Positions 38,538-59,524 are shown, numbered from the stretch's first letter. The stretch is DNA of 64,000 bases from a virus (IMGVR_UViG_3300020601_000007:32001-96000), one strand, 5' to 3'. The notes: generated from the sequence alone by a model not told the origin. Made by a program: numbers and translations.

Positions 38538-38569
38538 GACCACCTGTGAAACGAGAGGAACGACATTGA

Positions 38570-40593: not shown

Positions 40594-40597
40594 GCAT

Positions 40598-41026: not shown

Positions 41027-41030
41027 GCAT

Positions 41031-41306
41031 TCACTTCCTGCTGTTCCCCAACCACCAACCAAGCATGGCGAAAATTGTGTCAGTTGCGATGTTCACTGGA
41101 CTGTCCATCACAGAGCGGTCCCACCCGATTGACTTCAGAACATTGGAGCCACCTTTGGTGTTTTCAACAATTTCACTGGCGGTGTGGATACCCAAGGTCT
41201 GCACTGCTGAGAAACCGGTCTGCGCCAAAACGATACCGGCAGCAAAGTGAACAAACGACCACTCATCAAGCGCAGCACGGTTTCGACGTCCGAAGAGTTC
41301 CATCAT
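41031..41306 (-). CDS. Small membrane-embedded metal-dependent hydrolase candidate
   Basis: DEWSFVHF..G, EIVEN, DS..N...D within hydrophobic helices. Confidence 0.6.
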   Translation of the reverse strand: MMELFGRRNRAALDEWSFVHFAAGIVLAQTGFSAVQTLGIHTASEIVENTKGGSNVLKSIGWDRSVMDSPVNIATDTIFAMLGWWLGNSRK

Positions 41307-44300
41307 CGCACCCCTGCTTCAACGGCCAACTTGTTGTCTGGCTTGCCCGGACCGGTGGACGAATCAGCACCAACGACAAACGCATAGACGCGCCCTGCCG
41401 CCCACTGATGTTGCTGAACACCCGGCCTGTGACCCACGCGCCATGCTGCGAGCCCCTTGTCGTAAATTTTTTCCAGAATCGACTTCTTGATTCCTGTCTC
41501 CTTGCGGATGCGGTTCAGAAACTTCTGCTTGGAGGAACTGCCGCTTGGCTTGTAGTCCTCGTCGATGTTCTTCCGGTAGAGCCGGTAATATTTCTCCTTG
41601 TGCTTGGACGGACCGATTTTCAGACCACGGGCTGTTGCCTTGATGTCGGACTTCCAGAACTTGTATGCTTCCGGGTCGTTGACGTCGTATTTGTAGCCCT
41701 TGTCAATCTCGTCTTCCGCAATCATTTTCTCCAGTTTGGTCAGTCCCTTGAGGTAGCGTTTGGGGAACTTTTTGCCACCGGGTGTGCGGGGGTTGCTGAA
41801 CAGACTCCCCAATGAATCAAAACCGGAACCTTCGTCATCATCATCCTCTTTCAGGCGGGCGATGATTTTGGGGTGGTCAGACTTCCTCCATTCGTCGAAC
41901 CACTTGATTTTCCGCTTGTCTCCGGGTGGCGAGAATGTGCCGTCGATGATTCTGCTCGAGACTGGAATGGCCCCAATGGGTTTCCAAGTTTCCGACCACG
42001 CTTCGATGTCTGCCTCTGTCCATCGTCCAGAGCGAATGTCCTGCAAAATCGTGTCCTCAAAGGTGCCAAGGTATTTAATATTCCATGGCATGATGTTTCC
42101 TTCGATGATGAACTCCTCATGTAGCACCCCGACCTCGTAAGGAACAGGCCTGAACTGTTCCGGGTCAACTTTCACTTTCAGCATCACCATGTTGGCGATT
42201 GCTTCCTCAAATTCTTCTCGTGTGGGCATCCGGTCCCGCTTTCCCGTGTCAAAAAACATCCCGTCGATTTGACCACCCATGACCCACGCTTGGTAGGGAG
42301 CATCGGGGTAAAAGAGGAAATTGAAATCAGCAGTGAGCCCCTTCTGCATGATTGAATTCAAGTTGTTCTTGTGCGTGAAGTGGTAGCCGAACTCGGGGAT
42401 TGGCCTTGGGGGGTTTGCCATCGAACCCATGAAGCCTGAGTCGAATGAAACGAACGGTGTCACCTTGATAGGGAGACCGGGCTCGAACGGGTCATCTCCG
42501 CCAAAGTCATCGCCCATTTCACGGAAGTAGATGTTCCCAATAGGAGACCATCGGAATCCCATCCTTTCAATATTCACCTCGTTCATTTCCTCTTGAACAA
42601 AAACCACCTCGATACCAACACCGTGGACACGCTCAAGGTATTCTTTGGTCTGTGCAACCAGCGGGCGGTATTGCTCGAAGAATGGCAAGTCACCACGCGC
42701 GACCTTGTATGCCTCGTATTGCACGTCGGGGAACATTTTCCCCTCAATCTCTTCCATGCTCTGTCCCATTCGCCTCCTGACCACCGTCTTCATCAAAAGT
42801 GCACGGGGGAGTGCTTCGGCGTAGTAATCACCGACCTTCTCTGCGGGGATTTCCAAAAACGGGGAGGGGGGATTGGGTGCGACTGGGTCAAAAGAAATGC
42901 CATTGATGACATCACTCCATGTTTGGTGTTCTGATTCGTATAGGTCTGAGGATTCACCAATATCGCCCCAATCCAGTTTCTGCTCTTCAGAGTCAATCAA
43001 CCATTGTCCTGCGTATTCAACATGTGTTGATGTCGCTGGGTCGTCTCGATAAGAGTAGCGGCCTTTCCTGTAATGGAAGCCTTTTCCTGCTAACCCCTTG
43101 ACACGCTCAATGCTCATCAAGTTCTCAGCAGAATCAAAAACAAATGTGGCTGTTTCCTTGAAATCATTTTCACTTAGACCGTGAAAGGTTTCGCCCGTAG
43201 GCAGGTTCTTCTTCATCCAAGCGTATGTTCGTGGAGCCTTTTCCTCCAGTTTCGCAAGTCCCTCTCCGATGCCGGGGATGAAATACACGTTATCGAACTT
43301 GAGCGAGCGTGCTGAGATTTCCTCAAGGTCCTCCTTCATTTTCCTGATGTTCTCACTGTATTCATCGTCTGTGTAATATGCGGAAGCAAACCTGCTTGGG
43401 GACTTCTTGGTTCGGAACCCGATGGCGTTTGGCTCGTCGCGAATGATGGCCTGCCCCTTCTTCCCCTTCCTTTGGTCGTTGTCTCCGAAAACAAACAGCG
43501 TGTCGGGCCGAGAACGAACATGTGCTGGCGTGATTTTTTCCGGGTGTGGCTCGAGTCGGGGCTTCAGGTCAGAAAAACCTCCGATGAACTTTCCGTTGAC
43601 GAAAATAGCCGGAATGAACTGATAATTCTCAGTGAGGGGGCCGATTGTTTCTTGATAACCAGACACCTTTTCGATGTCAACATACCGGTGCTTGAGATTC
43701 TTCTTCTCCACCAGTTTCTTCGCTTCCTTGCACCACTTGCAGTATTCCGCCCCGTAAATCGTAATTCCCTTCTTCAATGGCAGCGGCACAGGCTTCGGCG
43801 GATTCGACAACTGCGTGATGGAGATGGTCTGGTCAGTGAGCCCCGGAGCGTAGGAGGCATCTGAAGGGAACCATGGGTTTGGCCTCACCTCAGAATTTTC
43901 GAGTAGGTATTGGAGTCCGAAGTGCAGCGGCTGAGGGAAGTCATCGAGAGCAAACCACTGAGCCCTCTCGGTTTCCCAGTTCAGCGTCGGTTCAAATTCG
44001 TCTTCGACCACGGCCAAGAAGTTGTGATACCTGAACGTGCCACTCTCAAAAACAACCAGTGGAACCATTTCAATTGGTCCTCGGTAGCCAGCCTCCTCGG
44101 TCAGTTCTCGTCGGGCTGCTTCAACAGGGACTTCACCCGAATCAATCGCCCCGCCCCAGACACCCCATGTCCCGGGTTGTTCAACGTGTTGGGACCTGAG
44201 CGGCAGGAGGTAGCGCCCCGTCTTCTTCGCAACGACCAGACTTCCTGCGCCCTGACTCCCCCAGAATCCTGTTTTTTCCAGAGTCTCCTGATGCTCATCG

Positions 44301-47300
44301 TCACTGGTTGGGTTTGCCACTGCGGCTTGACCGACTTCTTTGAGGCCCCAATCATGAGCCCCCAACGAAATGTCCATTATCTCGGGCATTGAGTCGGTTG
44401 GCTCCTGCTGTGCTTCCTTTTTCTTCTGCTTTTTCCACTTCTTCCAGAAAGCAGCCGTCCCCCTTTCTCCTGTCATCATTGGTTTGAGTGTCCACAACGC
44501 ATGCTCCACGTGCGAGTCACGCCATAAGCCGACTTCCTTGGCAGGCTTGAGTTTGGTCATCCCTCCCAACTCGGTCTGGTTTTTCTTCACTGCTTTCATG
44601 AATTTTACCATCACAGCCTCCAACATTGGGTAGGCTCGGTTGTATTCTGCGTTTGCCTGCTCCCACTGTTTCCATGCGGTTTTGTAGCGGCGTTTGTCTG
44701 GGTCTTTCTGGCTGAGCAATTCTTTGCGAACAGCATCCAGCCTGAACCTCATGCTATTCATCGCAACGGCACCAGACAGTTGCTCAAGAGACTCGCTATC
44801 GAAGTATTTGTTCCCCGTCCCCCGTGGGCCGTCCTCCCACCACCAATCAATCAGGTGCATGCTTTTGTCCCCCACCAAGAAATTCGGTGGGTTCCGGTCA
44901 GGCGTTAGGCCCATTCCCACCACGTCGATGTAAGCCTTGACAAAGCGGTCAAAGACTGGCTGCTTGAATTTGCTAACCTTCCTGAGATATTGAATCGTCT
45001 GCTTCATTTGGAGATGTGGTTTTTCCATCCCCCGCCACAGAGAGGAACCAACCGGCAGCAGGTCAGGAAGCGGCTCGGCATCAAGGCGTTTCATGATGGT
45101 GTGGTATCGCTCAACCTTTCCATCACCGAGCCCGTAAAGAGGGAAGCCAAACAGTTCTGAAGCACTCTTGGGCCATGGCGGGTATTTGTGGACGATGGTG
45201 TGTGTGCTGGGAAACACTGGCTTGCTCGAACCCTCCTTGCCTGCCAACCACTTTTTCATTTCTCGGTAATATTCTGGGCTTGTGTTTCGGTCCACTTTGA
45301 ACACAAAGTCTGTCCCGGGGATGTTGAATACGGTTCCGAAAGCACCAGACCCAACCAAGTTCTTTTTGAGGACCGAGTTGATTGCTCGTGCTGCCAAGTC
45401 GGGCGCCTTCAGCATTTTCTTTGGTGGGTTGGCTTTGGTGTATCCAGCAGTGTGAGATTTTTCGGGAGGGTTCATTTTCACTTCTGTTTTGCCCCACTTG
45501 CGCTTCTCTGTCATACCGACCCACGGGACGTCGGGACAGGGCGACATACGCTCGTAGCCGTTCTTTCGTGCCCACCGCCAAGGGTCATGTCCCCAAACCC
45601 ACAGGGAAAGGAGGCGGCGTGATGGCTTGGACTGCGTCTTCTGTGCACGGACAAGGGGGCCTTTGCGCTCCTCAGCATTCGGATTGTATGGGAAGGCACT
45701 CGTCCGCTTGACGAAACGGACCTGACGCTTGCACCAGTCCCAATCGGTCTCGCCCTTGAGTGGGTCATCAGATGGACCTGTCCACTTGCTCAGTGCTTTC
45801 TCGTAGTAGTCCTCAATGATACGAGGACCGGGTTTGATGTAGTCCTTCGGCCCGGTCAAACCGAGTTTGGCTCGCATTTTCAGGATGCGTCGGCCACTGA
45901 CACGACCACTCTTGATGTTGTTCCAGTCTTTCGCTTGCTGCTTGGAAAGGCCAGCCTTCTTGCCCAGTGGTGAATCAAGGAAGGCTTTCAGTTCCTTGTT
46001 CTTCATGTTGATGAGGTGAACCCACTCCTCGAACCAGTCGAAGAGGTCTTTGGGGTTTTCAAATTCATCGTCATCATCAAATGATTCCTTCGGTGAAACG
46101 AATGCGAAATAGGATTCATTCACATTCCAAACATTGACAGGCTTTACCGCTGGGTCGGTCCATGGCTTTTGGTATCGTCCTCCTAATCCCTCGAGCCCGA
46201 GATATTTCTCCCGGGCCTTCTGGTCCAACTTGTAGAATTCGACTTTGTCCACCTTGACCGTTGAGTCGGAGAACATCCTCACTTCACTTTCTGCAATCCC
46301 GAATGTGACGTTGGCCAGAAGGGTTCCGAACCAATTGACGTCACCAAAGGGAACGGTCCCCATGAGGAAGGCGATTCGACTGCTTGGGTGGAATTTGAAC
46401 TGGCGGCTCATGGCCCCCCCGAATTGGTCAGCCCCGTCTCGTGCGTTCGACCAATACAAGCCGACCCCGTATTTATTCCACAGTTCATTCAGAATTTCAG
46501 GAGGCTCTGATGTGAACATGGCCCGATACACCTTGACACGTTCACCACGGAACTTCTTGAGGTGTTCTTGAAAAATGTGCTCGGCAGCGTTTGCTGGAGA
46601 GACTCCAGTGTATCCCCAGCCCGCCAACAGTTCCCTGAACATTTTCTTTCGCCTTGCGATAATGTCCTTTTGCTTTTGAGTTGCTTTGGATGCATTGAAA
46701 TTGGGGGGAGGCCTTCCAGCGAATCGCCAAGCGATGTTGTCAAGGAGGCCCTTGTAATCGGCAGAAAGGATGACGTCCTTCAAGCGGAGGCCTTCCGGGG
46801 GGTTCGCCTTCGCTTCAGGCTCAATAAAGGTGTTCTCGGTTCTCCCGAGGGAGTAGCCCAAGGAAACCGGAGATACGTCGTAAGGGACCGGTTTCGCACC
46901 ACGTTCTCGGACTCGCCCAGCCGAATCAATATACGTGCCGGAGTGATTCCGAACAACCATGGTCTGCCCCAATTTGTTCGCTGATGTTTGTGCGAAATCG
47001 AACGCTTCCGCTTTTTCATAGAAATAGCCAACGTATTGCTTGAGACTCGGTGGTGGGGGAGGTGGTGGGCTTCTGCTACGCTTTGCGGGTGGTGGGGGAG
47101 GTGGGGGTTGAGGATTCGAGATGAAAGCATCGAGAGAAAATCGACTCTCCTTCGCTTCGAGTTCTGCTACACCCTCCACCGGAACAAGTGCCTGAAGTGG
47201 CGGGGGGATGACCTTCGTTTTCGGTGAACGAAGGTCTGCGCGAGTTTTGGGGGATAAAGTGGAGCCTTCTGGTAGTGGGCGGTTGTCAGGGGAAGTGACA

Positions 47301-50170
47301 AAGGCAACGTGAGTGCCAGCATCAGTCGTGCGAATCACTTGCTGGTTCCATTCAATCAGCCTTTGACGCTTTGCTTCATAAGCCTCATTGTTGTTCTCAA
47401 AAAGCGCCTCCAGCATGTTGAATGGCACTCCCGCTTTGCTGTTGAAAAATTCATTTTTTCGAGTGTGTCGCTCGAACTCGCTCATCTCATTTAGGGCGGG
47501 TTCAACCACAGCGAGAATTTTCGACTCGTGCACGCGAGGATTCGTCAGAATGTTCCCCATGCTTTTGGCCATTTTGTCAAACAGTTGCTCGTATGAACCA
47601 CTCTTCACCGTGACGAACTGGTCGAAGGGAATGCTCTTGGCTTCAGCGACTTGTGCTGCTCCCTCTTCGGCTTGCTTCTTTGCTTCTTCCAGCGACATGC
47701 CGCCACGGCGCATGATGCGCTGCACCATCTCTTTCCCAGACACATCGGGCTTGAGAAAAATGGTGTAGGCCTGTGGGAAGACCTTCTTGTAGGCTTTCAC
47801 CCCTTTCAGGTCTGCTGAAATCACGTTGACGGGGTAGTTGAAATCAACCCACCTGCGCCCGTAGTAATGTCCGTTCTCTCGGAGAGCCCACTCAACGAAC
47901 TGGTCGCTCTCAATCATCTGCTCGAACTCGGCCTTGCTGGTGAAAATCGCATCGACGCCGTCTTTTTCTCGTGAGCGACGGGGGCGGCTGGTGACTTTGA
48001 TTGGCTCACCCGCTACCTCGAACTTCTCAGTCATGTGTCGGATGAGTGTGCTTTTGCCAGAGCCGGTTGGACCGCTGACGATGACCAGACCGACCTTTTT
48101 CGCTTTCCGTGGGTTGATGCGAATGGCAGCCTCCACTTTGTCAATGACGATGCGGTCATCAAAGCCCTTCAGGATTTCCCCGACTTCCTCGTAAATCGTC
48201 TGAGCGACTTCTGCACCGAAGTCATCGACTTGATGCTCACGCTTGATGCTAACCCACAAAGAGGAAGTTGCAGGAATCAAGCGGACCGAAACATCGACCC
48301 CGTCGGGAATCATGCCAGTCAACGCCGGGAGGGTGTCAGTGTTGAACTTGAAGTATGCAGTGGACCCACCCTGTCGCTCACGAAAGACCCCGTCGAGATT
48401 GTCCGTGAATTGCTCAAACGAGGCTCCGACCAAAGCACTGCTGATTTCTTTGGTGCCGTAATCGCCCTGCCAATTGATGAACATCATGGACGGGCGGGGG
48501 TTGGGAAGTGGCTTCTCAAGGAATTTTTTCAGTTTCTCCACAAGCCCGCTCATGGCCCACTCCTTGTATGCTCGGCCATCACCCTTGAACTGAGTAGAAT
48601 TGCGGGCTTGCTTTGCATAGTCAGTGAACATGTGCGGGTGATGCGTCACAATGTCTGCCATCTGCATGATGAGGGCGACACCGTAATATTCGCCGACTTG
48701 CGTTTGAAAGAAGTCGTCGCTGATGTTTCGTCGCCCAACATCGGATTCCAACATCAACGAAACGATTTCCTCGAATGCATGGGGAACGTCCAGTGCGTCT
48801 GCGATGAATTCGTCCCACATGTATTTGCCTTCACGCGAATGGTGTTCACCGTCCTTTTCACGCACCTTCCCGATGTCATGGTAAAGAGCCACCGTGTAAA
48901 GCAGGTCAAGGAAGGACCAGTTTGCAGTGATTCGCTGATTGAGATACGCTCGGGTTTTCTTGCGGAGTTCCGAATCGAAGCCGAGTGACTCCAGTTTCCA
49001 CAATCTGCTGATTCCCCTGCTGTCTGGCTCGAAGTGATGACTCAGCCAATAGTAGACGTAAAGCGTGTGTGCGAACTCATCTCCACCATAGTGAACGTAG
49101 TCGTAGTCAACTCCCTGAAGGTCGGTGAGCGAATGGTGATGGTATTTGCCGGGGATGGTTGGCTTTGTCGGGTTGGGGAGCGGATTGGCTAAAGGGCCCT
49201 CGTCCCCCTTCTTGTATTTCGGATTGACGAAGTGCTGGTAGGTGATTTTCATCAGGCCCTTGTATTTGTCATTGAACATCCGCACCATCTCAGCGGTGAC
49301 CAAGTTGCAGTATTCGACAGGGCCGAGGCTATCGTCGTCCTTGTATTTCATTTCAGCCTGCTCAATCATGGCGTCAACATCGTCGATGAAATGGCCCTCG
49401 TCAATGTCGAGGTATTCATCCACCTTCTTCTTCTTGACATCAAAGCGGAAGTAGTCGATTCGGTCTCGCATCACCGTGTAGTTGTGCTTCACGCCCGGGG
49501 CGAATGCAAGGTCTGCATAGAATTGAATATCGTCAGCGGATGTCAGGGAGGGCTCGTCCTTTGATGGGTGCGTGTGGTAAAAGGCGACTTCATTGTCTGG
49601 TCGCTTGTTGATTTTGATTTTGGGCATGATGAGCGATGCACGACGGTGGAACACCTTTCCGTTGGAGGTGGCCCACCCGTAGGACTCACCACTGAACGAG
49701 ACGAAAGACCACAATTGGTCAAGGAACTTCTTGTCATTCAACCGCTTGTAGGGGAATTCTCGGAATACCTTGTGCGGGTTATGCGTCACCATGTCGTTCA
49801 TTTCTTTGGTGAAGTCGCTGGCCGAAACGGGGTTCTTGAGCACACCGTCGAAAGAGAGGTGTCCTTTCGCAATCGTGACACGGCCACTTGGATTGGAACG
49901 AACCGTTGTCACCTCATCACACATCAACTTCACCGGGACGACCCGTGGGCTGCTGAAGGAACGTGTGTTTGTTGGGACCGTGGCCGTCCGGTCAATGAAA
50001 TGACTCATCGCTTTTCGAGCCTGCGAGCGAGAGACCTTTCCGTTGAACATGACGAACCACGTGCCGTTCTCCATGTCCAAGGTCGCTTCCTTGATGTCGA
50101 GGCCACCCAACACAGACCCGCTCTTTGGGAAGCGCGTGTATTTGCGGACGACAGAGGGGGGCAAGTTCAC
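41303..50170 (-). CDS. 2955-aa multidomain (polyvalent) protein/polyprotein: JAB, HD, guanylate kinase, ART-like, DUF3140-like, kinase, Nudix, glutaredoxin, macro-like, second ART-like, DUF5824-like
   Basis: YHTHPS...SADD; LYHDIGK; SGPTGSGKST; VYRAM...GLYWS...ESEV; LINM...SGRRI...WGHDPW; VGSGAFGTVF...FKV...HLIDW; GG.IDSGE....AARRELTEEAG; CKWC...IPAIF; FVFGDN...G..GQA; YHFT...L.SI...GL; IYDKGLAAW..GHRPG...QWA.GRVYAF. Confidence 0.9.
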   Translation of the reverse strand: MNLPPSVVRKYTRFPKSGSVLGGLDIKEATLDMENGTWFVMFNGKVSRSQARKAMSHFIDRTATVPTNTRSFSSPRVVPVKLMCDEVTTVRSNPSGRVTIAKGHLSFDGVLKNPVSASDFTKEMNDMVTHNPHKVFREFPYKRLNDKKFLDQLWSFVSFSGESYGWATSNGKVFHRRASLIMPKIKINKRPDNEVAFYHTHPSKDEPSLTSADDIQFYADLAFAPGVKHNYTVMRDRIDYFRFDVKKKKVDEYLDIDEGHFIDDVDAMIEQAEMKYKDDDSLGPVEYCNLVTAEMVRMFNDKYKGLMKITYQHFVNPKYKKGDEGPLANPLPNPTKPTIPGKYHHHSLTDLQGVDYDYVHYGGDEFAHTLYVYYWLSHHFEPDSRGISRLWKLESLGFDSELRKKTRAYLNQRITANWSFLDLLYTVALYHDIGKVREKDGEHHSREGKYMWDEFIADALDVPHAFEEIVSLMLESDVGRRNISDDFFQTQVGEYYGVALIMQMADIVTHHPHMFTDYAKQARNSTQFKGDGRAYKEWAMSGLVEKLKKFLEKPLPNPRPSMMFINWQGDYGTKEISSALVGASFEQFTDNLDGVFRERQGGSTAYFKFNTDTLPALTGMIPDGVDVSVRLIPATSSLWVSIKREHQVDDFGAEVAQTIYEEVGEILKGFDDRIVIDKVEAAIRINPRKAKKVGLVIVSGPTGSGKSTLIRHMTEKFEVAGEPIKVTSRPRRSREKDGVDAIFTSKAEFEQMIESDQFVEWALRENGHYYGRRWVDFNYPVNVISADLKGVKAYKKVFPQAYTIFLKPDVSGKEMVQRIMRRGGMSLEEAKKQAEEGAAQVAEAKSIPFDQFVTVKSGSYEQLFDKMAKSMGNILTNPRVHESKILAVVEPALNEMSEFERHTRKNEFFNSKAGVPFNMLEALFENNNEAYEAKRQRLIEWNQQVIRTTDAGTHVAFVTSPDNRPLPEGSTLSPKTRADLRSPKTKVIPPPLQALVPVEGVAELEAKESRFSLDAFISNPQPPPPPPPAKRSRSPPPPPPPSLKQYVGYFYEKAEAFDFAQTSANKLGQTMVVRNHSGTYIDSAGRVRERGAKPVPYDVSPVSLGYSLGRTENTFIEPEAKANPPEGLRLKDVILSADYKGLLDNIAWRFAGRPPPNFNASKATQKQKDIIARRKKMFRELLAGWGYTGVSPANAAEHIFQEHLKKFRGERVKVYRAMFTSEPPEILNELWNKYGVGLYWSNARDGADQFGGAMSRQFKFHPSSRIAFLMGTVPFGDVNWFGTLLANVTFGIAESEVRMFSDSTVKVDKVEFYKLDQKAREKYLGLEGLGGRYQKPWTDPAVKPVNVWNVNESYFAFVSPKESFDDDDEFENPKDLFDWFEEWVHLINMKNKELKAFLDSPLGKKAGLSKQQAKDWNNIKSGRVSGRRILKMRAKLGLTGPKDYIKPGPRIIEDYYEKALSKWTGPSDDPLKGETDWDWCKRQVRFVKRTSAFPYNPNAEERKGPLVRAQKTQSKPSRRLLSLWVWGHDPWRWARKNGYERMSPCPDVPWVGMTEKRKWGKTEVKMNPPEKSHTAGYTKANPPKKMLKAPDLAARAINSVLKKNLVGSGAFGTVFNIPGTDFVFKVDRNTSPEYYREMKKWLAGKEGSSKPVFPSTHTIVHKYPPWPKSASELFGFPLYGLGDGKVERYHTIMKRLDAEPLPDLLPVGSSLWRGMEKPHLQMKQTIQYLRKVSKFKQPVFDRFVKAYIDVVGMGLTPDRNPPNFLVGDKSMHLIDWWWEDGPRGTGNKYFDSESLEQLSGAVAMNSMRFRLDAVRKELLSQKDPDKRRYKTAWKQWEQANAEYNRAYPMLEAVMVKFMKAVKKNQTELGGMTKLKPAKEVGLWRDSHVEHALWTLKPMMTGERGTAAFWKKWKKQKKKEAQQEPTDSMPEIMDISLGAHDWGLKEVGQAAVANPTSDDEHQETLEKTGFWGSQGAGSLVVAKKTGRYLLPLRSQHVEQPGTWGVWGGAIDSGEVPVEAARRELTEEAGYRGPIEMVPLVVFESGTFRYHNFLAVVEDEFEPTLNWETERAQWFALDDFPQPLHFGLQYLLENSEVRPNPWFPSDASYAPGLTDQTISITQLSNPPKPVPLPLKKGITIYGAEYCKWCKEAKKLVEKKNLKHRYVDIEKVSGYQETIGPLTENYQFIPAIFVNGKFIGGFSDLKPRLEPHPEKITPAHVRSRPDTLFVFGDNDQRKGKKGQAIIRDEPNAIGFRTKKSPSRFASAYYTDDEYSENIRKMKEDLEEISARSLKFDNVYFIPGIGEGLAKLEEKAPRTYAWMKKNLPTGETFHGLSENDFKETATFVFDSAENLMSIERVKGLAGKGFHYRKGRYSYRDDPATSTHVEYAGQWLIDSEEQKLDWGDIGESSDLYESEHQTWSDVINGISFDPVAPNPPSPFLEIPAEKVGDYYAEALPRALLMKTVVRRRMGQSMEEIEGKMFPDVQYEAYKVARGDLPFFEQYRPLVAQTKEYLERVHGVGIEVVFVQEEMNEVNIERMGFRWSPIGNIYFREMGDDFGGDDPFEPGLPIKVTPFVSFDSGFMGSMANPPRPIPEFGYHFTHKNNLNSIMQKGLTADFNFLFYPDAPYQAWVMGGQIDGMFFDTGKRDRMPTREEFEEAIANMVMLKVKVDPEQFRPVPYEVGVLHEEFIIEGNIMPWNIKYLGTFEDTILQDIRSGRWTEADIEAWSETWKPIGAIPVSSRIIDGTFSPPGDKRKIKWFDEWRKSDHPKIIARLKEDDDDEGSGFDSLGSLFSNPRTPGGKKFPKRYLKGLTKLEKMIAEDEIDKGYKYDVNDPEAYKFWKSDIKATARGLKIGPSKHKEKYYRLYRKNIDEDYKPSGSSSKQKFLNRIRKETGIKKSILEKIYDKGLAAWRVGHRPGVQQHQWAAGRVYAFVVGADSSTGPGKPDNKLAVEAGVR
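42410..42874 (-). repeat. Copy 1 of a duplicated NP-bounded coding module
   Basis: Shares GGGTCATCTCCGCCAAAGTCATCGCCCA and AAAAACCACCTCGATACC...CACGCTCAAGGT with 58475-58888. Confidence 0.9.
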
Positions 50171-53100: not shown

Positions 53101-53478
53101 TTCATGGAGCATCTGCTCCTCATTGGTGGAAGGAACGATTGGCTTCGGGTCGAAGTTATCCACTGGAACCCCGAAGGACTTGTGCTCACGAAGGAAGGCT
53201 TCGTGAAGGACGGGGCGAATCTCGTCAATGTTTTCCTTGGTGGTCTTCTTTGTGTCGATGACGTAAAGCGGTTTGCCCGTTTGCTTGTCCCGATAGTTGG
53301 CACCACGGAAAACAGTCGTCTTTGCGTCCCACGAGACCGTCCCCATTTGGAACATGGTCTGCTTGAAGAACTTGACCATGAACTCTTCAATGTCAGCACG
53401 GGAAGGCTTGAGCCCTGCTGTGGCGAATTCATTGGCGTATTTTGAGAACTGGAACAACAGTCCGTCGTATTTGCTCAC
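50167..53478 (-). CDS. LigD-like fusion: AEP primase-polymerase domain plus ATP-dependent DNA ligase, with N- and C-terminal extensions
   Basis: VIDLD, FTGKTFHIW, PFVD (AEP); PKYDG, NEGLIV, YKVK, DGVIMG, IVEVDF, RVRYDK (ligase plus OB fold). Confidence 0.85.
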   Translation of the reverse strand: MSKYDGLLFQFSKYANEFATAGLKPSRADIEEFMVKFFKQTMFQMGTVSWDAKTTVFRGANYRDKQTGKPLYVIDTKKTTKENIDEIRPVLHEAFLREHKSFGVPVDNFDPKPIVPSTNEEQMLHESMKAMAYRYNQLTLPFRLRKTMHHELQAVLFRNAQVMTSQRFTLHSEKEIREYIDATSYGTGMGKHGGSNKGLRDIWWRPNPSGNHPKVGVIDLDNPAEMPFDELARVTYDIAKRLSLIHSTLVLFTGKTFHIWFATKPMTFETVQECWDYTYSAIMKATPDVAFNREEAITRRVPFVDKSPMSGKTMTRMLFGMHYKPALEDSTGYCAIPVALDRVKKFNPQEAHPVAVMRDFERLKGMADAWFISAEVGDGFEETEAAPPCFRIPTDNPDKENPLVVKLQAWKKQPWTGGSGGIRYRDIGNELLQHPRLVVTPKYDGNVGLLAFNKRGGFKVHGKRLDSRKGASRAGMDVERSVMVTARGGVIGWDNYLTREFERICQDNDVDSIEVVVESIVVDGNGRVMGNEESRSILATGTDNHDPTTFRRLKAVIVDVLSVDGKDVSSLPFEERIMKAADLEGDRIRCVDPTVVEDDYEATVQAIWRSQVQERMNEGLIVYAGDRRYKVKRKYTIDGVIMGIYKGKVWQDKKPRLASILIGVSKKTNEGMAFVPVGRAINIPHEEGKKLFKEVLGEQTGEYGQFEHAVRNPGLEERYPDIQIVDPRVIVEVDFQKLSNRRSIAGPTLLRKPTRGHTGFQMGLSVTKSERYVRKLVGPANFLRVRYDKDIEDSADYSFRQGDGAGGFKIGVRADPMVNPALMVSPDDSPSAATPLFVSKTGLTSVMPNPFYGYAAGPRWVSGGRRPFMLPEHPGLVFEETPIGHKPVQPAGKQGGRTSAPDDWLTLKQEFADQLQSEEGKWGLHYDPQKIRFPKDKDGIAYFLDIPGFALGSDDAIYDEEGPNIGGVVSDKNREEVRYHNQLLMDYMVDEEQKARDGEVAALANLDQRSFQSFPVPVGELPDEEFDATFYDQQAENIASQFARLALDSKADNEKRNESRRRVLANPEHTEDSKSKKSIARSERGVIRPFDAFMVFEGEGEEE

Positions 53479-56159
53479 GGTGGAACCTCCGTCTGCAAAA
53501 TCGGCGGGGCCTGTGGGGGAGCAATCGCTGGTTCGGCTGGAACAGTGAAGCCCTCTGCTGCCGTTGCACGGGCAGCAATACGAGCCCGAATGTCAGCGTT
53601 CAGTTGGGTCGCCACGAACTGCTGGGTTTGAGCAGCGGGGATAATGATGTAGTCTCGGAGGATTTCAGTCGCTACCGCAAGAGCAGGGAAAGTGACCGTT
53701 CCGATGGCCTTCATTTTGAGATGCTTCTTGATGTCAGTGATGAACATCTCTTCAACCTGCTGTATGTCTGCCGTGTTGTCAATACGCATACGGTCGACAG
53801 CCGTGCTGAACGCTGCAAGGAACATGGTGTTGCTATCGTAAAGGCCACTGATGAAATCAAGGTAGGTGTTCAGGTCATTGGCGCCACCGGGAGGAATCGT
53901 TGGGATACCTGCCAGATACGTGGCTTGGGCTAAACCGGGCAGCATCGGACCCATAACGGGCGCTGTCAATCGGTTCACTTCTTCTTGCAGGACCTGAATG
54001 ATTTGCTCGTCAGTGACATCCAAGTTCCTCAGCGAGAGGATGGAGGCACGCACCATGTTCCACGCCTCTTTGACAGCACCAGACATGGACTCGCGTGCAC
54101 TTTTGATTTTCTTGGCTTTGTTGTTCCCACTTGGCCCCGCTGGACCAAACGGCTGCTCGTAAAGGAAACCACGGTTGGCCCCAACAAGAAGGGAAGCGAA
54201 CCACTCGTTGAACTGTCGAGAATATTCGAGGTAGGCGTCGCGCAGCAAGGGAGATTCCAACTTCAATTCAATGTCCTTCATTTCAAGGTTGAATGTCATC
54301 TGGGGGGCGACCCCTGCGGGGAAAGCAGCCGCAGGTGGAACGAGAACGGCTCGGGTGGGGAGTTTGTTCTGGGACATCGCTGGGATGAGAGCAGGATTCA
54401 GGTGCTTTGACACAATCTGCGAATACCACTGAATCTCAGCAAGGGCGAAGTTGTCGTCCTTGAACAGGTTTTCCAATGTCTTGCGCAGCCCTTTCTTTTT
54501 GTGCCACATGTTGGCGAAGAACGCGGTGGTGTGGTCTGTGCGTGCATCAATGAACCAGTCTCCAAAGAACTTCGACCCATCGCCCGTTTGATTGCGCACG
54601 CCACCTATTCCTGCGGTGGCACCTGCTGCGAGAGGAGGAGCGCCCCGTGGCCGAGGAATGGAATAGATACCGCTGTTTGGTGGGCTGTTTGTCCCATCGT
54701 AATCTCGGAAATGTTCCTTGGTAAAGCGGCTGTGATTGATTTTTGACAAAGCGAGCGTGTTCATGTGCTCGATGTAAATGAAAGCGTCAACGACACGTTC
54801 AAACAGAGCAAGAGCAGCACTGTTTCGCAAGTCTGCTGATTGCCTCAGGTCCGGCTGACCCACTGGAACGAAGGTGTTGGAAACGAGAACAGCCCTGTAA
54901 ATGTAGTCAGGGTCGACTGTGCTTGCCACATCCACGACTGGTTTGTTGTCGCGGCGGCCAGTGCGAGTGACCCGCCAAGTCCCCTCCCTGACGGCTTGAA
55001 GGGGGTCAGGCTGGTTTGCGGGCGGCTTCCAAGTGGCAGGAGGGACTGCACGAACTCGATTGCCTTGCTGACGAGCAGGACGCACTCTGTTCGTTTCCAG
55101 AATACCAAGGACCTGCCCAATGGGCATTTTCGCATCAAGGCGGTCAAGAAGCGGTTTGAGGAATTGCTTGATGGAATTGCGGAACTTGTCCGGCTCGATG
55201 TCTTTGAAATCCTCAAGTTCACCCTCGTATTGAACAGAAAGCGTGTTGGTCGCTTGCCTTGTCTTGGGGAACTGGTTGACACCCGGACCTTGGTATCCGG
55301 GTTGACCGAAATTAGCGTGGCGGCTGTGAAGACGAGACTCAACGTTTGCGTTGTCGAGCATGGCGTCGAGTTCCGCCTCACCTGCTGGCGCAGCGATGAC
55401 ACTCTCCCAAAGTTGGAAAAAATTGTATTTCGTGACACCACCGTCAACAAACGTGTCGAAAATGTTCGTCCTGTTTCGGTCTGCGCCCCGTGGACCGGGT
55501 TGCTTTTGGTCAAACGTGAGCAAAGTGACAGCCATCCACTCGACGATGTCGTTTGGTGTGGCGAGACCGAGGCGAATGTTGTCAACCATCATACGGGCCA
55601 AAGAGGGGAGAAGGAAATAGACACTTTGTCCGCCTTGACGCAAGTCTGCTTGAAGGGGGGCCGCTGCCTCAAAAACAGAGCCACCGGGGTCTTCTCTCAT
55701 CCGGAGTTCATCTGGCCTCTTGTTGAAATTACCGGCCAATACACCGAACCATGCTGGCCCTGCGTCGTCACGCTGGAAGAAGGTGGCGAAATGGGGGTGT
55801 CCAAACGCGTCCTGAGGCCTTGCCCCTACGCGCGTGTGTTTGATTGGTGGATAAATTCTTTGGAATGGCAACTCGTCAAGCCCCGCCTCAAGGAATCTGA
55901 AAATCCTATTGGTAGTGAAAGCACCCAACGTTGGGACGTTGTCTTCGTTGGTGAAATATTCGCCCTGTAAGTGGTGGGTCAACATGAACCCGGGCTCAAT
56001 CTGGTGTGAACCGGGAAATCCCCGTGGAGGAGGCTGGAACGAGCGACGGAAGCGCTCGTAGTGGTTCTTAACCCACCTGCGGATGGACGGGCGTGCGACT
56101 CGAAGGAACCCTTTCACACCGTTGTCATTGGGTGCAGTCAGAAACACGGATGGGTCCAT
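53475..56159 (-). CDS. Large hypothetical protein (894 aa)
   Basis: Long ORF; GGGAGG RBS; coupled to the ligase gene. Confidence 0.85.
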   Translation of the reverse strand: MDPSVFLTAPNDNGVKGFLRVARPSIRRWVKNHYERFRRSFQPPPRGFPGSHQIEPGFMLTHHLQGEYFTNEDNVPTLGAFTTNRIFRFLEAGLDELPFQRIYPPIKHTRVGARPQDAFGHPHFATFFQRDDAGPAWFGVLAGNFNKRPDELRMREDPGGSVFEAAAPLQADLRQGGQSVYFLLPSLARMMVDNIRLGLATPNDIVEWMAVTLLTFDQKQPGPRGADRNRTNIFDTFVDGGVTKYNFFQLWESVIAAPAGEAELDAMLDNANVESRLHSRHANFGQPGYQGPGVNQFPKTRQATNTLSVQYEGELEDFKDIEPDKFRNSIKQFLKPLLDRLDAKMPIGQVLGILETNRVRPARQQGNRVRAVPPATWKPPANQPDPLQAVREGTWRVTRTGRRDNKPVVDVASTVDPDYIYRAVLVSNTFVPVGQPDLRQSADLRNSAALALFERVVDAFIYIEHMNTLALSKINHSRFTKEHFRDYDGTNSPPNSGIYSIPRPRGAPPLAAGATAGIGGVRNQTGDGSKFFGDWFIDARTDHTTAFFANMWHKKKGLRKTLENLFKDDNFALAEIQWYSQIVSKHLNPALIPAMSQNKLPTRAVLVPPAAAFPAGVAPQMTFNLEMKDIELKLESPLLRDAYLEYSRQFNEWFASLLVGANRGFLYEQPFGPAGPSGNNKAKKIKSARESMSGAVKEAWNMVRASILSLRNLDVTDEQIIQVLQEEVNRLTAPVMGPMLPGLAQATYLAGIPTIPPGGANDLNTYLDFISGLYDSNTMFLAAFSTAVDRMRIDNTADIQQVEEMFITDIKKHLKMKAIGTVTFPALAVATEILRDYIIIPAAQTQQFVATQLNADIRARIAARATAAEGFTVPAEPAIAPPQAPPILQTEVPP

Positions 56160-56170
56160 TCATTCCTCCC

Positions 56171-56665
56171 TCACAACCGGTAAGCGAAGCGATACGTCGG
56201 GTAGGATTTCCCTTCCTTCGGTATGCCGCCGGTTTGAGGTGGCAACACTTCGACAGTGAAGTCCACACGGTCAGCACCCATAGAGGTTGCGCCGTATTCG
56301 CTGGGTTCAACGAAGAACTCGCCCGTTTGACCGGGCGTCAGGGTGAATGTCCGGGTGTTGGCAGTGACTGTCGCACCAGACTTCTTGGAATTGTAGGTGA
56401 TGCGGACGACGGAGCCGTTGTTGCTATCATCCCTGAAGCGCAACTGAATACCCATCGCTGAACCGTGGTAGGTGCCACCGTTCGCAACATTCGCTTCTGT
56501 CACCTGATTTGTGCTTTTGTTGTAGTAAGTGATGCGGAGAGAGGAAATGTTCGGAGCAGGATTGCTGATGACCCGCTGCCCTCCATACAGGAAGAGTGCT
56601 GCAACGGCAGCAATACCGAGCAGTTGCTTGTTTCGCTTTTTCTTTGATGGGCCAAATGGATACAT
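56171..56665 (-). CDS. Membrane-anchored Ig-like protein
   Basis: Basic plus TM N-terminus, then ISNP and a beta-rich domain. Confidence 0.7.
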   Translation of the reverse strand: MYPFGPSKKKRNKQLLGIAAVAALFLYGGQRVISNPAPNISSLRITYYNKSTNQVTEANVANGGTYHGSAMGIQLRFRDDSNNGSVVRITYNSKKSGATVTANTRTFTLTPGQTGEFFVEPSEYGATSMGADRVDFTVEVLPPQTGGIPKEGKSYPTYRFAYRL

Positions 56666-56674
56666 GTCATCACC

Positions 56675-57025
56675 TCAATATCGGTATCGGTATTGCCACG
56701 GAATGAATCCTTCACCCGGGCTGATTTCTTTCTTGAACAGGTCGGTCTTTCGCTCCAGCGTGTCGATGGCCGACTTCGCCAGCAACATGAAGCCAAGGAC
56801 AGTTGAGAGCGTGTTGAGTTCGCTCCATGTTGACTTCTTCAACCCAAAGCGGGATGCTTTGACGAGTTTGGATGACTTCCCGTATCCAAACACACCTTTG
56901 CTCCCGACAGTGTCCAAAGCACCCCGTGCTGCGGTAGCAACGACGACGCCAAGGGATGCGAGTTCGATTTTGTCCCACGTTTTGACAGGGACGCCGAAGT
57001 AGGTCTGTCGCTTCTCCGCTGCCAT
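56675..57025 (-). CDS. Small membrane protein
   Basis: Two hydrophobic helices; GAGGTGGGTG RBS. Confidence 0.65.
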   Translation of the reverse strand: MAAEKRQTYFGVPVKTWDKIELASLGVVVATAARGALDTVGSKGVFGYGKSSKLVKASRFGLKKSTWSELNTLSTVLGFMLLAKSAIDTLERKTDLFKKEISPGEGFIPWQYRYRY

Positions 57026-57034
57026 TCACCCACC

Positions 57035-59524
57035 TCAATCAATCAACCATGCTTTGCCGTCTCGCATACCGATTTTCATGCTCCCGCCTTTGATGATGAG
57101 CATCGGCTCACCACTTTCAGGCATCGTTGCATACAGCGTCGGGAAGTTGCCATCCTTTGACTCCTCGTTCATTTCGTGGATGAACTTTTGCTCCTCGTCA
57201 CCGTTTTCCTTGGGCGACTTGTAGCCAATGGTCCAGCACTCTCCCAGTGAATACCAAACATCACCGACGTCAATTTTCTCAGTCGTGATTTCGTCCGGGG
57301 TCTTGCCACCGTGGAACTTCTTGTAAGCGTCTTTGGCCTTCTTGACCTTTGCAGGCTTCGCAGGGTTCTTCTTCACCCCGCCACGAAGTTTGATTGCATC
57401 AGCATTCGCAACGATGGTGATTGTTGCGGAACCCTGAATGATTTCGTAGTCCATTTTTAGGTTGGCGACTGCGTTGCCACCGAGGGCCTTTGCGTTATCA
57501 GAGAGTTCCTTTTGCATTGACGCAATACCCAACGCCAGACGCTTTTCAGCCATTGACGTTCGGCCACCAATGAGCCCTCGGTAGATGGCCTGAACCACTT
57601 CACCGACGTCTTTCACAACGTTCCTGCCAATCACAACTTCAGCGAATATCGCACCGAGGTTCTTGGTCATGGCTTTCGGTTCACCCGAATAGATGGGAAC
57701 AATACCAGACGGGTTGTCAATCGGGTTCCACGTCTTCGTCACCGAGTTCACGCCACGCTGACCGTATTCCTCTTTGACGTAGCGAAGAGCCACAGCAGAA
57801 CGCTGGGAGTTGTCAGGGAACTCTTCGTTCATCATTTTGTTGCCCATGAGGCGGTCGAAATATTTCTTCGCTGATTCACGGCGCTTCTTCCCGGTCTTCT
57901 TGCTGGTCTGGCGACGGGGCTTCGGGGGAGGATTGCTGAGTGTGGGAATCCTCATGCCTGATTTGAGGATAGGTTGCAGTGGAGCCGAACCATCTGTCCG
58001 TTCTGGAATCGTGTTTCCGGCTTGAATCCACGCCTCCAGTTCTTCGAGTGAAGTCCAATCGGGGATGCTGAATCCCCAGTGGTTAATGGAATGCTCTCGA
58101 CTGTAATTCTGCAAACCTTCCCATTGATGGGTTTTCAACATCGTGTTTCCAATTTCAAATGGATATGGATTGAGTTCCAACGACTCTGGCCCGATGTTCC
58201 AAGTAAAAACTTGGTGTTGCCCGTTTCGGTCATAGTGCAGACTCCCGTCTGGGTTCAAGGGGGAAATCCGCATCTGGAACGATTCCTGTCGATAAGGGTG
58301 CTTCTTGTTGTATTGGTTGAAGATTGAGAACTGCTCAAGCAGCAGATTACCGAGGCCCCCTTGAGCGACTGACAGGGCAATTGAGTTTGGAGTCGAATAC
58401 ACCCCCACTCGGGGATTCTCCATAACGGCGCTCGGGCCGTAGGTGACACAGGGGTTCTTCCCGCAACCACAGTTGGGGTTGCTGAGTGAAGGGCTGGAAT
58501 CGAACGGAGTCACCTTGATGGCGTTGCCGGGACGGAGTGGGTCATCTCCGCCAAAGTCATCGCCCACTTTTCGGAAGTAAATGCTGCCATAAGGATTCCA
58601 CTGCATACCTCGTGATTCATCCCCTTTGTGTTGGACAAAAACCACCTCGATACCGACGCCGTGAACACGCTCAAGGTGTTCTTTGGTCTCCATAATCAAC
58701 GGCTTTCTTTCTGTCTGAAAATATTCCAAGACGCCTGCTGCGGGCAAGTATGCTGGGTAAATCCCACCCGGAGTGTAACTTTGGCCCATCTGGTATTCAA
58801 TCAAAAATGCACGGGGGAGTGATTCGGCATAGTAACTGGGAACCTCTTCGGGTTTGATTGCGTTCCAAAATTTGCGCTTCGATGGATTCGTCAGCGTGTA
58901 AGGACCCGGCGTCGGTGCAGGATGGAGGCCTGAGAGCGTGTATGACCCGGGCGTTGGTTCAGGTGCAAGGTAGGGGTTCTTGCTGTCGCCGATGTAGTCG
59001 TTGACCGTTGCATAAACACCCGGAACGTCCATTTCCTTTGCAGCGGCAGCAGAACTGCTCCCGAAGGAGAACACGATGTCGTAGCGGTTGCCCAAGGAAC
59101 GGATGTTCTTTGCAGCATCGCCCATCAGCACGAGCGGTCCTGAACTGTCTGCCGTCACTGGGTATCCAAGTTGGCGTAGGCGGTCCTGAAGTCGGAACTG
59201 GTATGAGTCTTCGAGGGAACTGATGAAAGCAATCACATGGTTCTTCCGCCCCAATTTGTTGACGAAGTCTTTGACACCCGTGCGAGAGACTGCCTTCTCA
59301 AGGTTGTTTGCCACCTCGCGCTCAAACCGCTTTCCAGACAGTCCCTTGCGACGAGCGATGCGCTCACCCGCTGAGTTGCTGAGAAGAGCCTCTTCCACAT
59401 GGAAGACTGCCATTTTCCCCTTGCTCAAAGCATGATTTGGGTTGCTCTTTGGCAGGTTAGCACCACAGACAATGCAAAACACCACGCCGTCGGCGTTGTC
59501 AGCGTTGCAGGATGGGCACTCCAT
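57035..59524 (-). CDS. 829-aa modular protein: Zn ribbon, degenerate HAD-like domain, duplicated module, unknown domains, YbjQ/UPF0145 domain, C-terminal beta domain
   Basis: CPSC...CIVCG; HAD-like core; EVVIGRNVVKD...IGGRT...AKALGGNAV..LKMDYE (YbjQ); YKKFHG...FIHE...LIIKGG. Confidence 0.85.
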   Translation of the reverse strand: MECPSCNADNADGVVFCIVCGANLPKSNPNHALSKGKMAVFHVEEALLSNSAGERIARRKGLSGKRFEREVANNLEKAVSRTGVKDFVNKLGRKNHVIAFISSLEDSYQFRLQDRLRQLGYPVTADSSGPLVLMGDAAKNIRSLGNRYDIVFSFGSSSAAAAKEMDVPGVYATVNDYIGDSKNPYLAPEPTPGSYTLSGLHPAPTPGPYTLTNPSKRKFWNAIKPEEVPSYYAESLPRAFLIEYQMGQSYTPGGIYPAYLPAAGVLEYFQTERKPLIMETKEHLERVHGVGIEVVFVQHKGDESRGMQWNPYGSIYFRKVGDDFGGDDPLRPGNAIKVTPFDSSPSLSNPNCGCGKNPCVTYGPSAVMENPRVGVYSTPNSIALSVAQGGLGNLLLEQFSIFNQYNKKHPYRQESFQMRISPLNPDGSLHYDRNGQHQVFTWNIGPESLELNPYPFEIGNTMLKTHQWEGLQNYSREHSINHWGFSIPDWTSLEELEAWIQAGNTIPERTDGSAPLQPILKSGMRIPTLSNPPPKPRRQTSKKTGKKRRESAKKYFDRLMGNKMMNEEFPDNSQRSAVALRYVKEEYGQRGVNSVTKTWNPIDNPSGIVPIYSGEPKAMTKNLGAIFAEVVIGRNVVKDVGEVVQAIYRGLIGGRTSMAEKRLALGIASMQKELSDNAKALGGNAVANLKMDYEIIQGSATITIVANADAIKLRGGVKKNPAKPAKVKKAKDAYKKFHGGKTPDEITTEKIDVGDVWYSLGECWTIGYKSPKENGDEEQKFIHEMNEESKDGNFPTLYATMPESGEPMLIIKGGSMKIGMRDGKAWLID
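58475..58888 (-). repeat. Copy 2 of the duplicated NP-bounded coding module
   Basis: YYAESLPRAFL...TKEHLERVHGVGIEVVFVQ...IYFR..GDDFGGDDP..PG..IKVTPF is shared with the 2955-aa protein. Confidence 0.9.

What the first reader, a model, noticed from the sequence alone, without database searches (positions are those of the whole stretch)
42410..58888. One module duplicated between two genes with NP at both ends of both copies
Seen: 42410-42874 (APNP...IKVTPF...MANP) and 58475-58888 (LTNP...IKVTPF...LSNP) encode the same roughly 140-150 aa domain and retain long DNA identities, including a 28-nt exact match GGGTCATCTCCGCCAAAGTCATCGCCCA. The flanking modules are unrelated. Inference: the NP-to-NP unit is the unit of shuffling, which is the best internal evidence that NP motifs are functional boundaries.
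Basis: seen in the sequence. Interest (0 to 1): 0.78.

Follow-up and report, generated by a model that had tools for sequence, protein, structure and literature searches.

The report
Asn-Pro-bounded protein cassette in two genes
Two genes of an uncultured marine archaeal virus carry copies of one orphan protein module, and comparison with close relatives shows that such modules are gained, lost and swapped almost exactly at Asn-Pro pairs, which look like cut-here marks although no cutting has been shown.

Summary
Window 42410-42874 and 58475-58888 (minus strand) encode the same orphan module: 51% aa identity, E 1e-32, one 28-nt exact match. Homology stops inside the flanking Asn-Pro (NP) pairs. 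It is not an assembly artefact.

- A Tara contig 90-94% identical in DNA lacks exactly 136 codons, the unit [NP + module], in the 829-aa gene.
- The giant protein and its 90-96% identical relative differ by clean module indels at NP.
- In 121 non-redundant homologues, 72% of internal ends of >=80%-identity blocks lie within 6 aa of an NP, against 11% expected.

NP is selected at the protein level. It is 3.2x enriched while DP, SP and TP are about 1.0, and its codons vary freely. It is conserved at orthologous junctions and absent from the free C-termini examined.

The two copies are old paralogues (dS 0.85). The second copy is therefore a cassette acquisition or loss, not a recent in-genome duplication.

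Cleavage at NP is plausible but unshown. Candidate enzymes are a conserved neighbouring metzincin-like gene and a JAMM-like module. The module's fold and function are unknown. This scan has noted NP seams before on other DNA.

The parts
42410..42874 (-). Copy 1 of the orphan module, NP to NP (P0001 aa 2433-2587)
   Evidence: Also present at 93% identity in P0004 and in P0003.
58475..58888 (-). Copy 2 of the module, NP to NP (P0002 aa 213-350). By the codon comparison with Tara contig L003 the inserted unit [NP + module] is 58481-58888 (408 nt).
42489..42516 (.). 28-nt exact match, first occurrence (encodes part of the GDDFGGDDP block)
58539..58566 (.). 28-nt exact match, second occurrence
41303..50170 (-). 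Gene of the 2955-aa multi-module protein: JAMM-like, HD, guanylate kinase, NUDIX, glutaredoxin, DUF7831 and DUF5824 modules. It has 22 NP against 7.6 expected.
57035..59524 (-). Gene of the 829-aa multi-module protein: zinc ribbon, the module, a YbjQ module. It has 13 NP against 3.6 expected.
41786..42409 (-). Module after copy 1 (P0001 aa 2588-2794). It is absent from P0004 by a clean indel: MANP|...|RTPGG.
   Evidence: Weak DarT-like N-terminal motif, E 0.019.
46799..47110 (-). Polyproline-rich module (P0001 aa 1021-1124). It is absent from P0004 by a clean indel: ISNP|...|PEGL.
57365..57712 (-). YbjQ module of P0002 (aa 605-720), NP at both ends. The same module occurs in giant proteins of relatives (P0048, P0052), again with NP at both ends.
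49220..49774 (-). JAMM/MPN+-like module (P0001 aa 133-317), a candidate cis-protease or deconjugase
   Evidence: E162, H199, H201, S211 and D214 are invariant in 65 distinct homologues. AF2 pLDDT 88.9. All top fold matches are JAMM enzymes; best Z 7.6, rmsd 4.5, 136 aligned.
40120..40608 (-). 162-aa metzincin-like ORF (HEYGHALGLQH) with a hydrophobic C-terminal tail, a candidate trans-protease
   Evidence: Peptidase_M10 scores 22.3 bits against a cut-off of 24. Homologues lie 4-7 kb past the JAMM module in 6 of 7 relative records.

Best explanation
The two stretches are old paralogous copies of one lineage-restricted module with a core of about 120-130 aa and unknown function. Each sits as a cassette in a different multi-module ('polyvalent') protein of a magrovirus-group-D-like marine archaeal virus. 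These proteins are chains of modules joined by a short linker that contains an Asn-Pro pair. The NP lies 1-13 residues after the preceding module in the cases examined, and 8-10 residues before the detectable core of this module. Cassettes are gained, lost or replaced as [NP + module] units. The copy in the 829-aa gene is such a unit: it is present here and absent from a 90-94% identical relative. It was acquired from a diverged source, or lost precisely in the relative, rather than copied recently from the giant gene. Shown: the homology, the exact breakpoints, and the amino-acid-level conservation and junction-only placement of NP. Inferred: NP is a recognition or cleavage mark by which the chain is cut into separate modules. 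I put cleavage at about 45%. The conserved neighbouring metzincin-like protein or the JAMM-like module would be the enzyme. Clean junctions then persist because only recombinants that keep an intact NP linker survive, possibly helped by the 6-nt AAYCCN microhomology.
For: Homology and its limits. Exact 136-codon insertion relative to L003: the relative's junction codons are ACG AAC CCC AAC; the window has ACG AAT CCA TCG on the left and AGC AAC CCC AAC on the right. The relative's NP codons match the right-hand NP, so the inserted unit starts with NP. None of about 120 other P0002 homologues has the module. Clean NP-to-NP indels and a replacement separate P0001 from P0004. Block ends near NP: 528 of 677 against 65 expected, and 424 of 588 against 66 +/- 8 in a non-redundant set; no other dipeptide comes close. 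NP is 3.18x enriched, while DP, SP, TP and GP are 0.94-1.10. The RNA polymerase subunit, PolB and the 894-aa protein of the same window show no NP excess. NP codons follow background usage and vary at orthologous junctions. Junction NP is conserved: guanylate kinase start 79/79, HD 51/51 and 52/52, DUF5824 start 66/66. NP columns are nearly invariant in an alignment with 16% mean column identity. Free C-termini end AGVR or AGVRKE, whereas internal copies continue K-NP. dS 0.85, dN 0.36 between the copies. Protease candidates.
Against: No cleavage product, proteomic or biochemical evidence exists. Neither candidate enzyme has a known Asn-Pro specificity: by established knowledge JAMM enzymes cut after Gly-Gly of ubiquitin-like tails. 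The metzincin match is below Pfam's cut-off. Some breakpoints are not on NP: P0002 versus P0088 has a left end 6 aa after an NP, and P0001 versus P0004 has one at aa 2362 inside a unit. Some NPs are internal and unconserved (P0001 aa 1496; P0002 aa 310). The direction of the event (insertion or precise loss) rests on parsimony. Assigning NP to the downstream module rests on two synonymous sites plus the C-terminus comparison.
Confidence: 0.75

Rival explanations
1. NP is a structural hinge or cap (an Asx-Pro turn or helix N-cap) in a flexible linker, and the proteins work uncut as beads on a string. Breakpoints cluster there only because linkers tolerate recombination.
For: NP sits in linkers between folded modules. 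No cleavage has been shown.
Against: Only Asn is enriched before Pro. Asp, Ser and Thr, which by established knowledge cap equally well, are at 0.94-1.10x. NP is absent from the free C-termini examined, and free N-termini that align near a junction start about 10 residues after it, so NP is not part of a module's fold. Indels are clean to the residue, where a merely tolerant 10-20 aa linker should give ragged joins.
Confidence: 0.25
2. The breakpoints are set at the DNA level. The hexamer AAYCCN acts as microhomology or a recombination signal, and the NP dipeptide is a by-product.
For: The same 5-6 nt lie at both ends of the insert; L003 bases 2721-2725 align to both sides.
Against: Both Asn codons and all four Pro codons are used at background frequency, so no DNA motif extends beyond what the amino acids require. 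Orthologous junctions keep N-P while the codons change, and NP persists in homologues of 26-40% identity. Microhomology may help an event but does not explain the conservation.
Confidence: 0.1
3. NP acts during translation, as a 2A-like peptide-bond skip or as a programmed pause (NPP) that lets each module fold before the next is made.
For: By established knowledge 2A sites end in NPG-P. Here Pro is the commonest residue after NP: 360 of 1393 sites.
Against: Gly is not among the six commonest residues after NP, and the upstream 2A consensus D(V/I)ExNPGP is absent. About 74% of sites lack a following Pro. As far as I know, 2A skipping has been shown only on eukaryotic ribosomes.
Confidence: 0.07
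4. The duplication is a recent in-genome copy, or a chimeric assembly joined through the 28-nt repeat.
For: A 28-nt exact repeat could confuse a short-k assembler. The copies share more identical codons than codon usage predicts: 48 of 70 against 28 expected.
Against: dS 0.85 and 51% aa identity contrast with flanks only 6-10% diverged from a relative that lacks the insert. Independent protein clusters carry each copy. Contigs of other runs cross three of the four junctions, and no joints were reported. A run of about 9 identical codons in a strictly conserved peptide block is unremarkable at this divergence.
Confidence: 0.03

Closest known systems
Polyvalent proteins of phages and conjugative elements (Iyer, Burroughs, Anand, de Souza, Aravind 2017, PMC5512222)
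   Same: Single polypeptides string together many unrelated enzyme or effector domains, here a JAB-like module, NUDIX, HD, a kinase and others. Architectures are highly mosaic between relatives. Proteolytic processing is proposed.
   Different: In the passages read, that paper proposes zincin-like MPTase, assemblin-like or LonC peptidase domains as processors. Searches of its text for cleavage, processing, linker and asparagine terms returned no Asn-Pro junction motif. Pfam found no MPTase in P0001. The host here appears to be an archaeon, and the junctions follow a strict NP grammar.
Virus polyproteins cut at short conserved motifs by a viral protease (ASFV pp220/pp62 at GG|X, adenovirus precursors at (M/I/L)XGG|X); from established knowledge
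   Same: A two-residue mark recurs at every junction of a large structural or cargo precursor in a large DNA virus, and a protease gene lies in the morphogenesis block.
   Different: The motif is Asn-Pro, not Gly-Gly. No clan CE cysteine protease was identified, and cleavage has not been demonstrated.
Asn-Pro self-cleavage by asparagine peptide lyases (FlhB/YscU N|PTH; reovirus mu1 N42|P43); from established knowledge
   Same: The scissile bond in those systems is Asn-Pro, so chain breakage at NP has a chemical precedent.
   Different: Those sites need a specific folded context (NPTH in a tight turn). Here only N and P are conserved, in linkers with variable neighbours, so autocatalysis at hundreds of different sites is unlikely.
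Pro-Pro endopeptidase PPEP-1 of Clostridioides difficile (cuts VNP|PVP); recalled from memory, a lead only
   Same: It is a zinc metalloprotease whose site contains Asn-Pro followed by Pro. NPP is the commonest form here (26% of sites).
   Different: PPEP-1 belongs to a different metalloprotease family (M34, not a metzincin). About 74% of the sites here lack the second Pro. No homology was tested.

Membership tests
Polyvalent proteins (Iyer et al. 2017) | Two to fifteen unrelated catalytic or binding domains in one polypeptide of a virus or plasmid | tested here: met
   Pfam finds guanylate kinase, NUDIX, glutaredoxin, DUF7831 and DUF5824 above cut-off in P0001; HD scores 21 bits against a cut-off of 22. 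A JAMM-like module is supported by fold and motifs. The record is an IMG/VR virus record.
Polyvalent proteins (Iyer et al. 2017) | Mosaic, rapidly changing domain architectures among relatives | tested here: met
   Of the 16 longer NP units of P0001, 6 are found in 50-80 of 83 other homologues, 7 in 1-30, and 3 in at most one close relative. Relative positions vary.
Polyvalent proteins (Iyer et al. 2017) | Zincin-like MPTase or another in-chain peptidase domain proposed for processing | tested here: inconclusive
   Pfam found no MPTase in P0001 or P0002. A JAMM-like module is present instead.
Polyvalent proteins (Iyer et al. 2017) | Packaged in the virion and delivered with the DNA | not testable with these tools
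   This needs virion proteomics.
Protease-processed viral polyprotein | Short conserved motif at every junction between mature products | tested here: met
   NP is conserved at module borders: 79/79, 51/51, 66/66. It is nearly invariant in alignment A4 and absent from the free C-termini examined.
Protease-processed viral polyprotein | Cognate protease encoded by the virus | tested here: inconclusive
   There are two candidates: a metzincin-like ORF conserved next to the gene in 6 of 7 relatives and a JAMM-like module. Neither is linked to NP.
Protease-processed viral polyprotein | Cleavage products observed | not testable with these tools
   No proteomic data are available. RNA-library contigs show only that the DNA or RNA is present.
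2A / StopGo peptides | Consensus D(V/I)ExNPG-P | tested here: not met
   Gly is not among the six commonest residues after NP, and the upstream positions are P/A/V, R/K/L and K/S/P rather than DxE.
Asparagine peptide lyases of FlhB/YscU type | N-P-T-H motif in a conserved fold | tested here: not met
   Residues after NP vary (P, R, S, K, A ...) and the context is a linker.
JAMM/MPN+ metalloproteases (for P0001 aa 133-317) | E ... HxH ... S..D zinc and catalytic motif | tested here: met
   E162, H199, H201, S211 and D214 are 100% conserved in 65 distinct sequences.
JAMM/MPN+ metalloproteases (for P0001 aa 133-317) | MPN fold | tested here: inconclusive
   The AF2 model has pLDDT 88.9. The top 14 VIA rows, and most of the rest, are JAMM/MPN-fold proteins such as Rpn11, PfJAMM1, CSN5 and AMSH. 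Z is only 7.6-6.3 (best row rmsd 4.5, 136 aligned) and Foldseek E is at least 5e-3. There is no Pfam hit.
Metzincins (for ORF 40120-40608) | HExxHxxGxxH zinc motif | tested here: met
   HEYGHALGLQH is in the translation. Pfam Peptidase_M10 scores 22.3 bits against a cut-off of 24, so family membership by profile is below threshold. The Met-turn was not examined.

The most novel reading that the evidence does not exclude
Asn-Pro is the cut site of an undescribed processing system of large archaeal (and some bacterial) viruses. Multi-enzyme cargo is made as chains of [NP + module] cassettes, cut apart by a virus-encoded zinc protease, and new cassettes can be slotted in at any NP without disturbing the rest. 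That would be a plug-in grammar for viral effector repertoires.
Probability: 0.4. Interest if true: 0.85.

Novelty: new variant of a known kind. Interest (0 to 1): 0.62.

Why it matters
If NP is a true processing or recognition mark, these viruses have a simple two-residue grammar. It would let them assemble, exchange and release enzyme cargo as standard parts. That would explain how giant polyvalent proteins evolve so fast. It would point to a protease with an unusual Asn-Pro specificity, which could be useful as a tool. It would also let modules in thousands of unannotated viral giant proteins be delimited by eye. The event documented here is an exact [NP + module] difference between two viruses whose flanking DNA differs by only 6-10%. 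It is a clean natural experiment on the unit of exchange.

Tried and rejected
- **Function of the module:** nothing was found. Pfam at E <= 10 gave no hit. PHROGs on the whole proteins gave nothing in that region. A PDB profile search gave only chance-level hits, E >= 0.23. The ESM Atlas gave no usable hit. HMMER against 1.84 billion representatives gave 0 hits. tblastn against 50,697 phage records gave none.
- **Fold of the module:** AF2 with the two-sequence alignment gave pLDDT 41.8, so no fold search was run on it.
- **Relatives carrying the module:** none in IMG/VR and none in JGI metagenome contigs.
- **Gene split in L005:** a split of the giant gene looked like a possible fission at a junction, but it lies mid-module (DTAEFLF|SEYDPR). 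It is most likely a frameshift or sequencing error.
- **N-termini of shorter homologues:** they align near NP in only about 60 of 209 cases, which is not informative.
- **Gene conversion as the cause of the 28-nt match:** not needed at dS 0.85, because the match lies in an invariant peptide block.
- **Literature:** the magrovirus papers do not mention polyproteins. Searches for DUF5824, for Asn-Pro with polyprotein, and for archaeal virus polyproteins gave nothing relevant.

Full report
**What is there**

The window is bases 32001-96000 of a 110-kb IMG/VR virus record, estimated 79% complete. Earlier notes of this scan place it with 'magrovirus group D'. I did not re-test that beyond seeing an archaeal-type Rpb1-like RNA polymerase subunit and a family B DNA polymerase.

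On the minus strand lie a 2955-aa ORF (41303-50170, P0001) and an 829-aa ORF (57035-59524, P0002).
- P0001 holds guanylate kinase, NUDIX, glutaredoxin, DUF7831 and DUF5824 domains above Pfam's cut-offs, and a near-threshold HD domain.
- P0002 holds a zinc ribbon and a YbjQ domain.

- BLASTP gives 51% identity, E 1e-32, and nothing else significant between the two proteins.
- The 28-nt string occurs twice, against none in shuffles.
- All DNA repeat blocks lie inside the intervals.
- Homology begins 8-10 residues after the upstream NP, and the last conserved block ends 7-12 residues before the downstream NP.

It is not an assembly artefact.
- Independent protein clusters carry each copy: P0003 and P0004 for copy 1, and P0087 for copy 2.
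- Twenty DNA runs hold at least 83% of the sampled words of the copy-2 stretch, and nine of them are not flagged as the possible source.
- Contigs from two of those nine runs cross three of the four module junctions, and no joints were reported.
- No listed contig spans the N-side junction of copy 2, which therefore rests on P0087.

**The decisive comparisons**

(a) The 829-aa gene. Its closest relative, P0088 (697 aa), is 97-99% identical in the flanks and lacks the module.
- Its DNA is Tara contig CEUH01142759.1 (L003), 90-94% identical to window 61629-50000, and it lacks exactly 408 nt.
- The codons are ACG AAC CCC AAC TGC in the relative. The window has ACG AAT CCA TCG... on the left and ...AGC AAC CCC AAC TGT on the right.
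- The difference is therefore one unit of 136 codons. On codon identity, that unit begins with NP.
- None of about 120 further homologues of P0002 has the module, so gain in this lineage is the parsimonious reading.

(b) The giant gene. P0004 is 90-96% identical to P0001 where they align. They differ as follows:
- ISNP|104 aa|PEGL in P0001 versus ISNP|PEGL in P0004.
- MANP|207 aa|RTPGG in P0001 versus MANP|RTPGG in P0004.
- A replacement bounded by KMNP| and ...ANP|TSDDE.

(c) Module exchange between the two gene families. The YbjQ module of P0002, NP-bounded, recurs with NP at both ends in giant proteins of other relatives.

**Family-wide test**

Eighty-four homologues of P0001 (1,647-4,540 aa) share a backbone: a JAMM-like module, guanylate kinase, two further modules and DUF5824. 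Variable cassettes sit between these.
- NP is 3.2 times more frequent than composition predicts. It is the most enriched dipeptide that does not contain Cys.
- DP, SP, TP and GP are at 0.94-1.10.
- Other large proteins of the same window (the RNA polymerase subunit, PolB and an 894-aa protein) show no excess.
- Of 677 internal ends of blocks with at least 85% identity, 528 lie within 6 aa of an NP, against 65 expected by random placement.
- In a non-redundant set of 121 proteins from both families, the figure is 424 of 588 against 66 +/- 8.

These counts are not independent events, because related sequences share breakpoints. The effect is nevertheless large, and no other dipeptide approaches it.

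**Nature of the constraint**

- NP codons follow background usage, with both Asn codons and all four Pro codons in use. Orthologous junctions keep N-P while the codons and the neighbouring residues change.
- Junction NPs are conserved in homologues down to about 26-40% identity: guanylate kinase start 79/79, HD 51/51 and 52/52, DUF5824 start 66/66.
- They stand out as nearly invariant columns in an alignment with 16% mean column identity.
- Where the DUF5824 module ends a protein it stops at AGVR or AGVRKE. Where another module follows, it continues K-NP-....

NP is therefore a junction-only, amino-acid-level feature. It is not a DNA signal and not part of a module's fold. It is also not perfect: the NP at P0001 aa 1496 and the one at P0002 aa 310 are internal and unconserved, and two breakpoints fall off NP.

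**Age of the duplication**

Over 118 aligned codons of the core, dS is 0.85 and dN is 0.36. Of 70 identical residues, 48 use the same codon against 28 expected.

The flanks of copy 2 differ by only 6-10% in DNA from the relative without it. Copy 2 therefore did not come recently from the resident copy 1. It was brought in from a diverged source, or it is an old paralogue that the relative lost precisely. The 28-nt match needs no gene conversion, because it lies in an invariant peptide block.

**How it may work**

The cassette behaviour is shown. That NP is a cut or recognition site is an inference. Two candidate enzymes exist.
- **Metzincin-like ORF.** A 162-aa ORF three genes downstream (40120-40608) carries HEYGHALGLQH and a hydrophobic tail. 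It scores just below Pfam's matrixin cut-off. It is conserved 4-7 kb beyond the JAMM module in 6 of 7 searchable IMG/VR relatives.
- **JAMM-like module.** P0001 aa 133-317 is present in 77 of 83 other homologues. It has an invariant E...HxH...S..D set and a confident model, pLDDT 88.9. All its best structural matches are JAMM enzymes, at a middling Z of 7.6.

Neither enzyme type is known to cut at Asn-Pro. The 2A-type and FlhB-type mechanisms fail their motif tests.

**What is known**

The closest described class is the polyvalent proteins of phages and conjugative elements (PMC5512222). In the passages read, that paper proposes zincin-type processing, and targeted searches of its text returned no Asn-Pro junction motif. 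The magrovirus papers do not mention such proteins. This scan has reported Asn-Pro seams before on other DNA; those are unchecked notes, not independent evidence.

**Module function**

This remains unknown. There were no hits in Pfam, PDB, PHROGs, the ESM Atlas or 1.84 billion protein representatives, and the AF2 model is unusable.

Noticed in passing
window 37506-38543 (-): A 345-aa ORF starts with a 14-residue leader ending in NP (MVMVALQELVIVNP). It continues with about 170 residues of Arg/Lys/Thr repeats, then a hydrophobic Gly/Ala/Leu-rich C-terminal part. It looks like a protamine-like DNA-condensing protein with an NP-terminated propeptide.
   Followed up: no
window 41786-42409 (-), P0001 aa 2588-2794: The module after copy 1 begins GYHFTHKNNLNSI, a weak match to the N-terminus of DarT ADP-ribosyltransferases (Pfam E 0.019, below cut-off). 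The whole module is absent from P0004 and from all other homologues.
   Followed up: partly
protein P0088 / locus L003 (Tara contig CEUH01142759.1): NCBI labels the close relative's protein as from a 'Halieaceae bacterium' MAG. The contig is syntenic with, and 90-94% identical to, this virus record, so it is probably a mis-binned viral contig.
   Followed up: partly
L005:9539-15281: In one IMG/VR relative the giant gene is broken into two overlapping frames in the middle of a module (DTAEFLF|SEYDPR). This is probably a frameshift or sequencing error, not a natural split at a junction.
   Followed up: yes
window 44311-45424 (-), P0001 aa 1583-1953: The stretch between NP 1581 and NP 1953, whose start (GSGAFGTVF ... 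FKVDR) looks like a protein kinase by eye, is replaced in the 90-96% identical P0004 by an unrelated stretch of about 85 aa. Both ends of the replacement lie on NP. Pfam reported no kinase match.
   Followed up: partly
window 58430-58474 (-), P0002 aa 351-365: Some NP-bounded units are very short: NCGCGKNP (8 aa) and CVTYGPSAVMENP (13 aa). The first is conserved in the Tara relative. They may be spacer peptides or leftovers of earlier exchanges.
   Followed up: no
window 41000-60000: Contigs from two metatranscriptome libraries of the same salt-marsh series lie on parts of both genes, including copy 2. This is compatible with transcription, but DNA carry-over cannot be excluded.
   Followed up: partly
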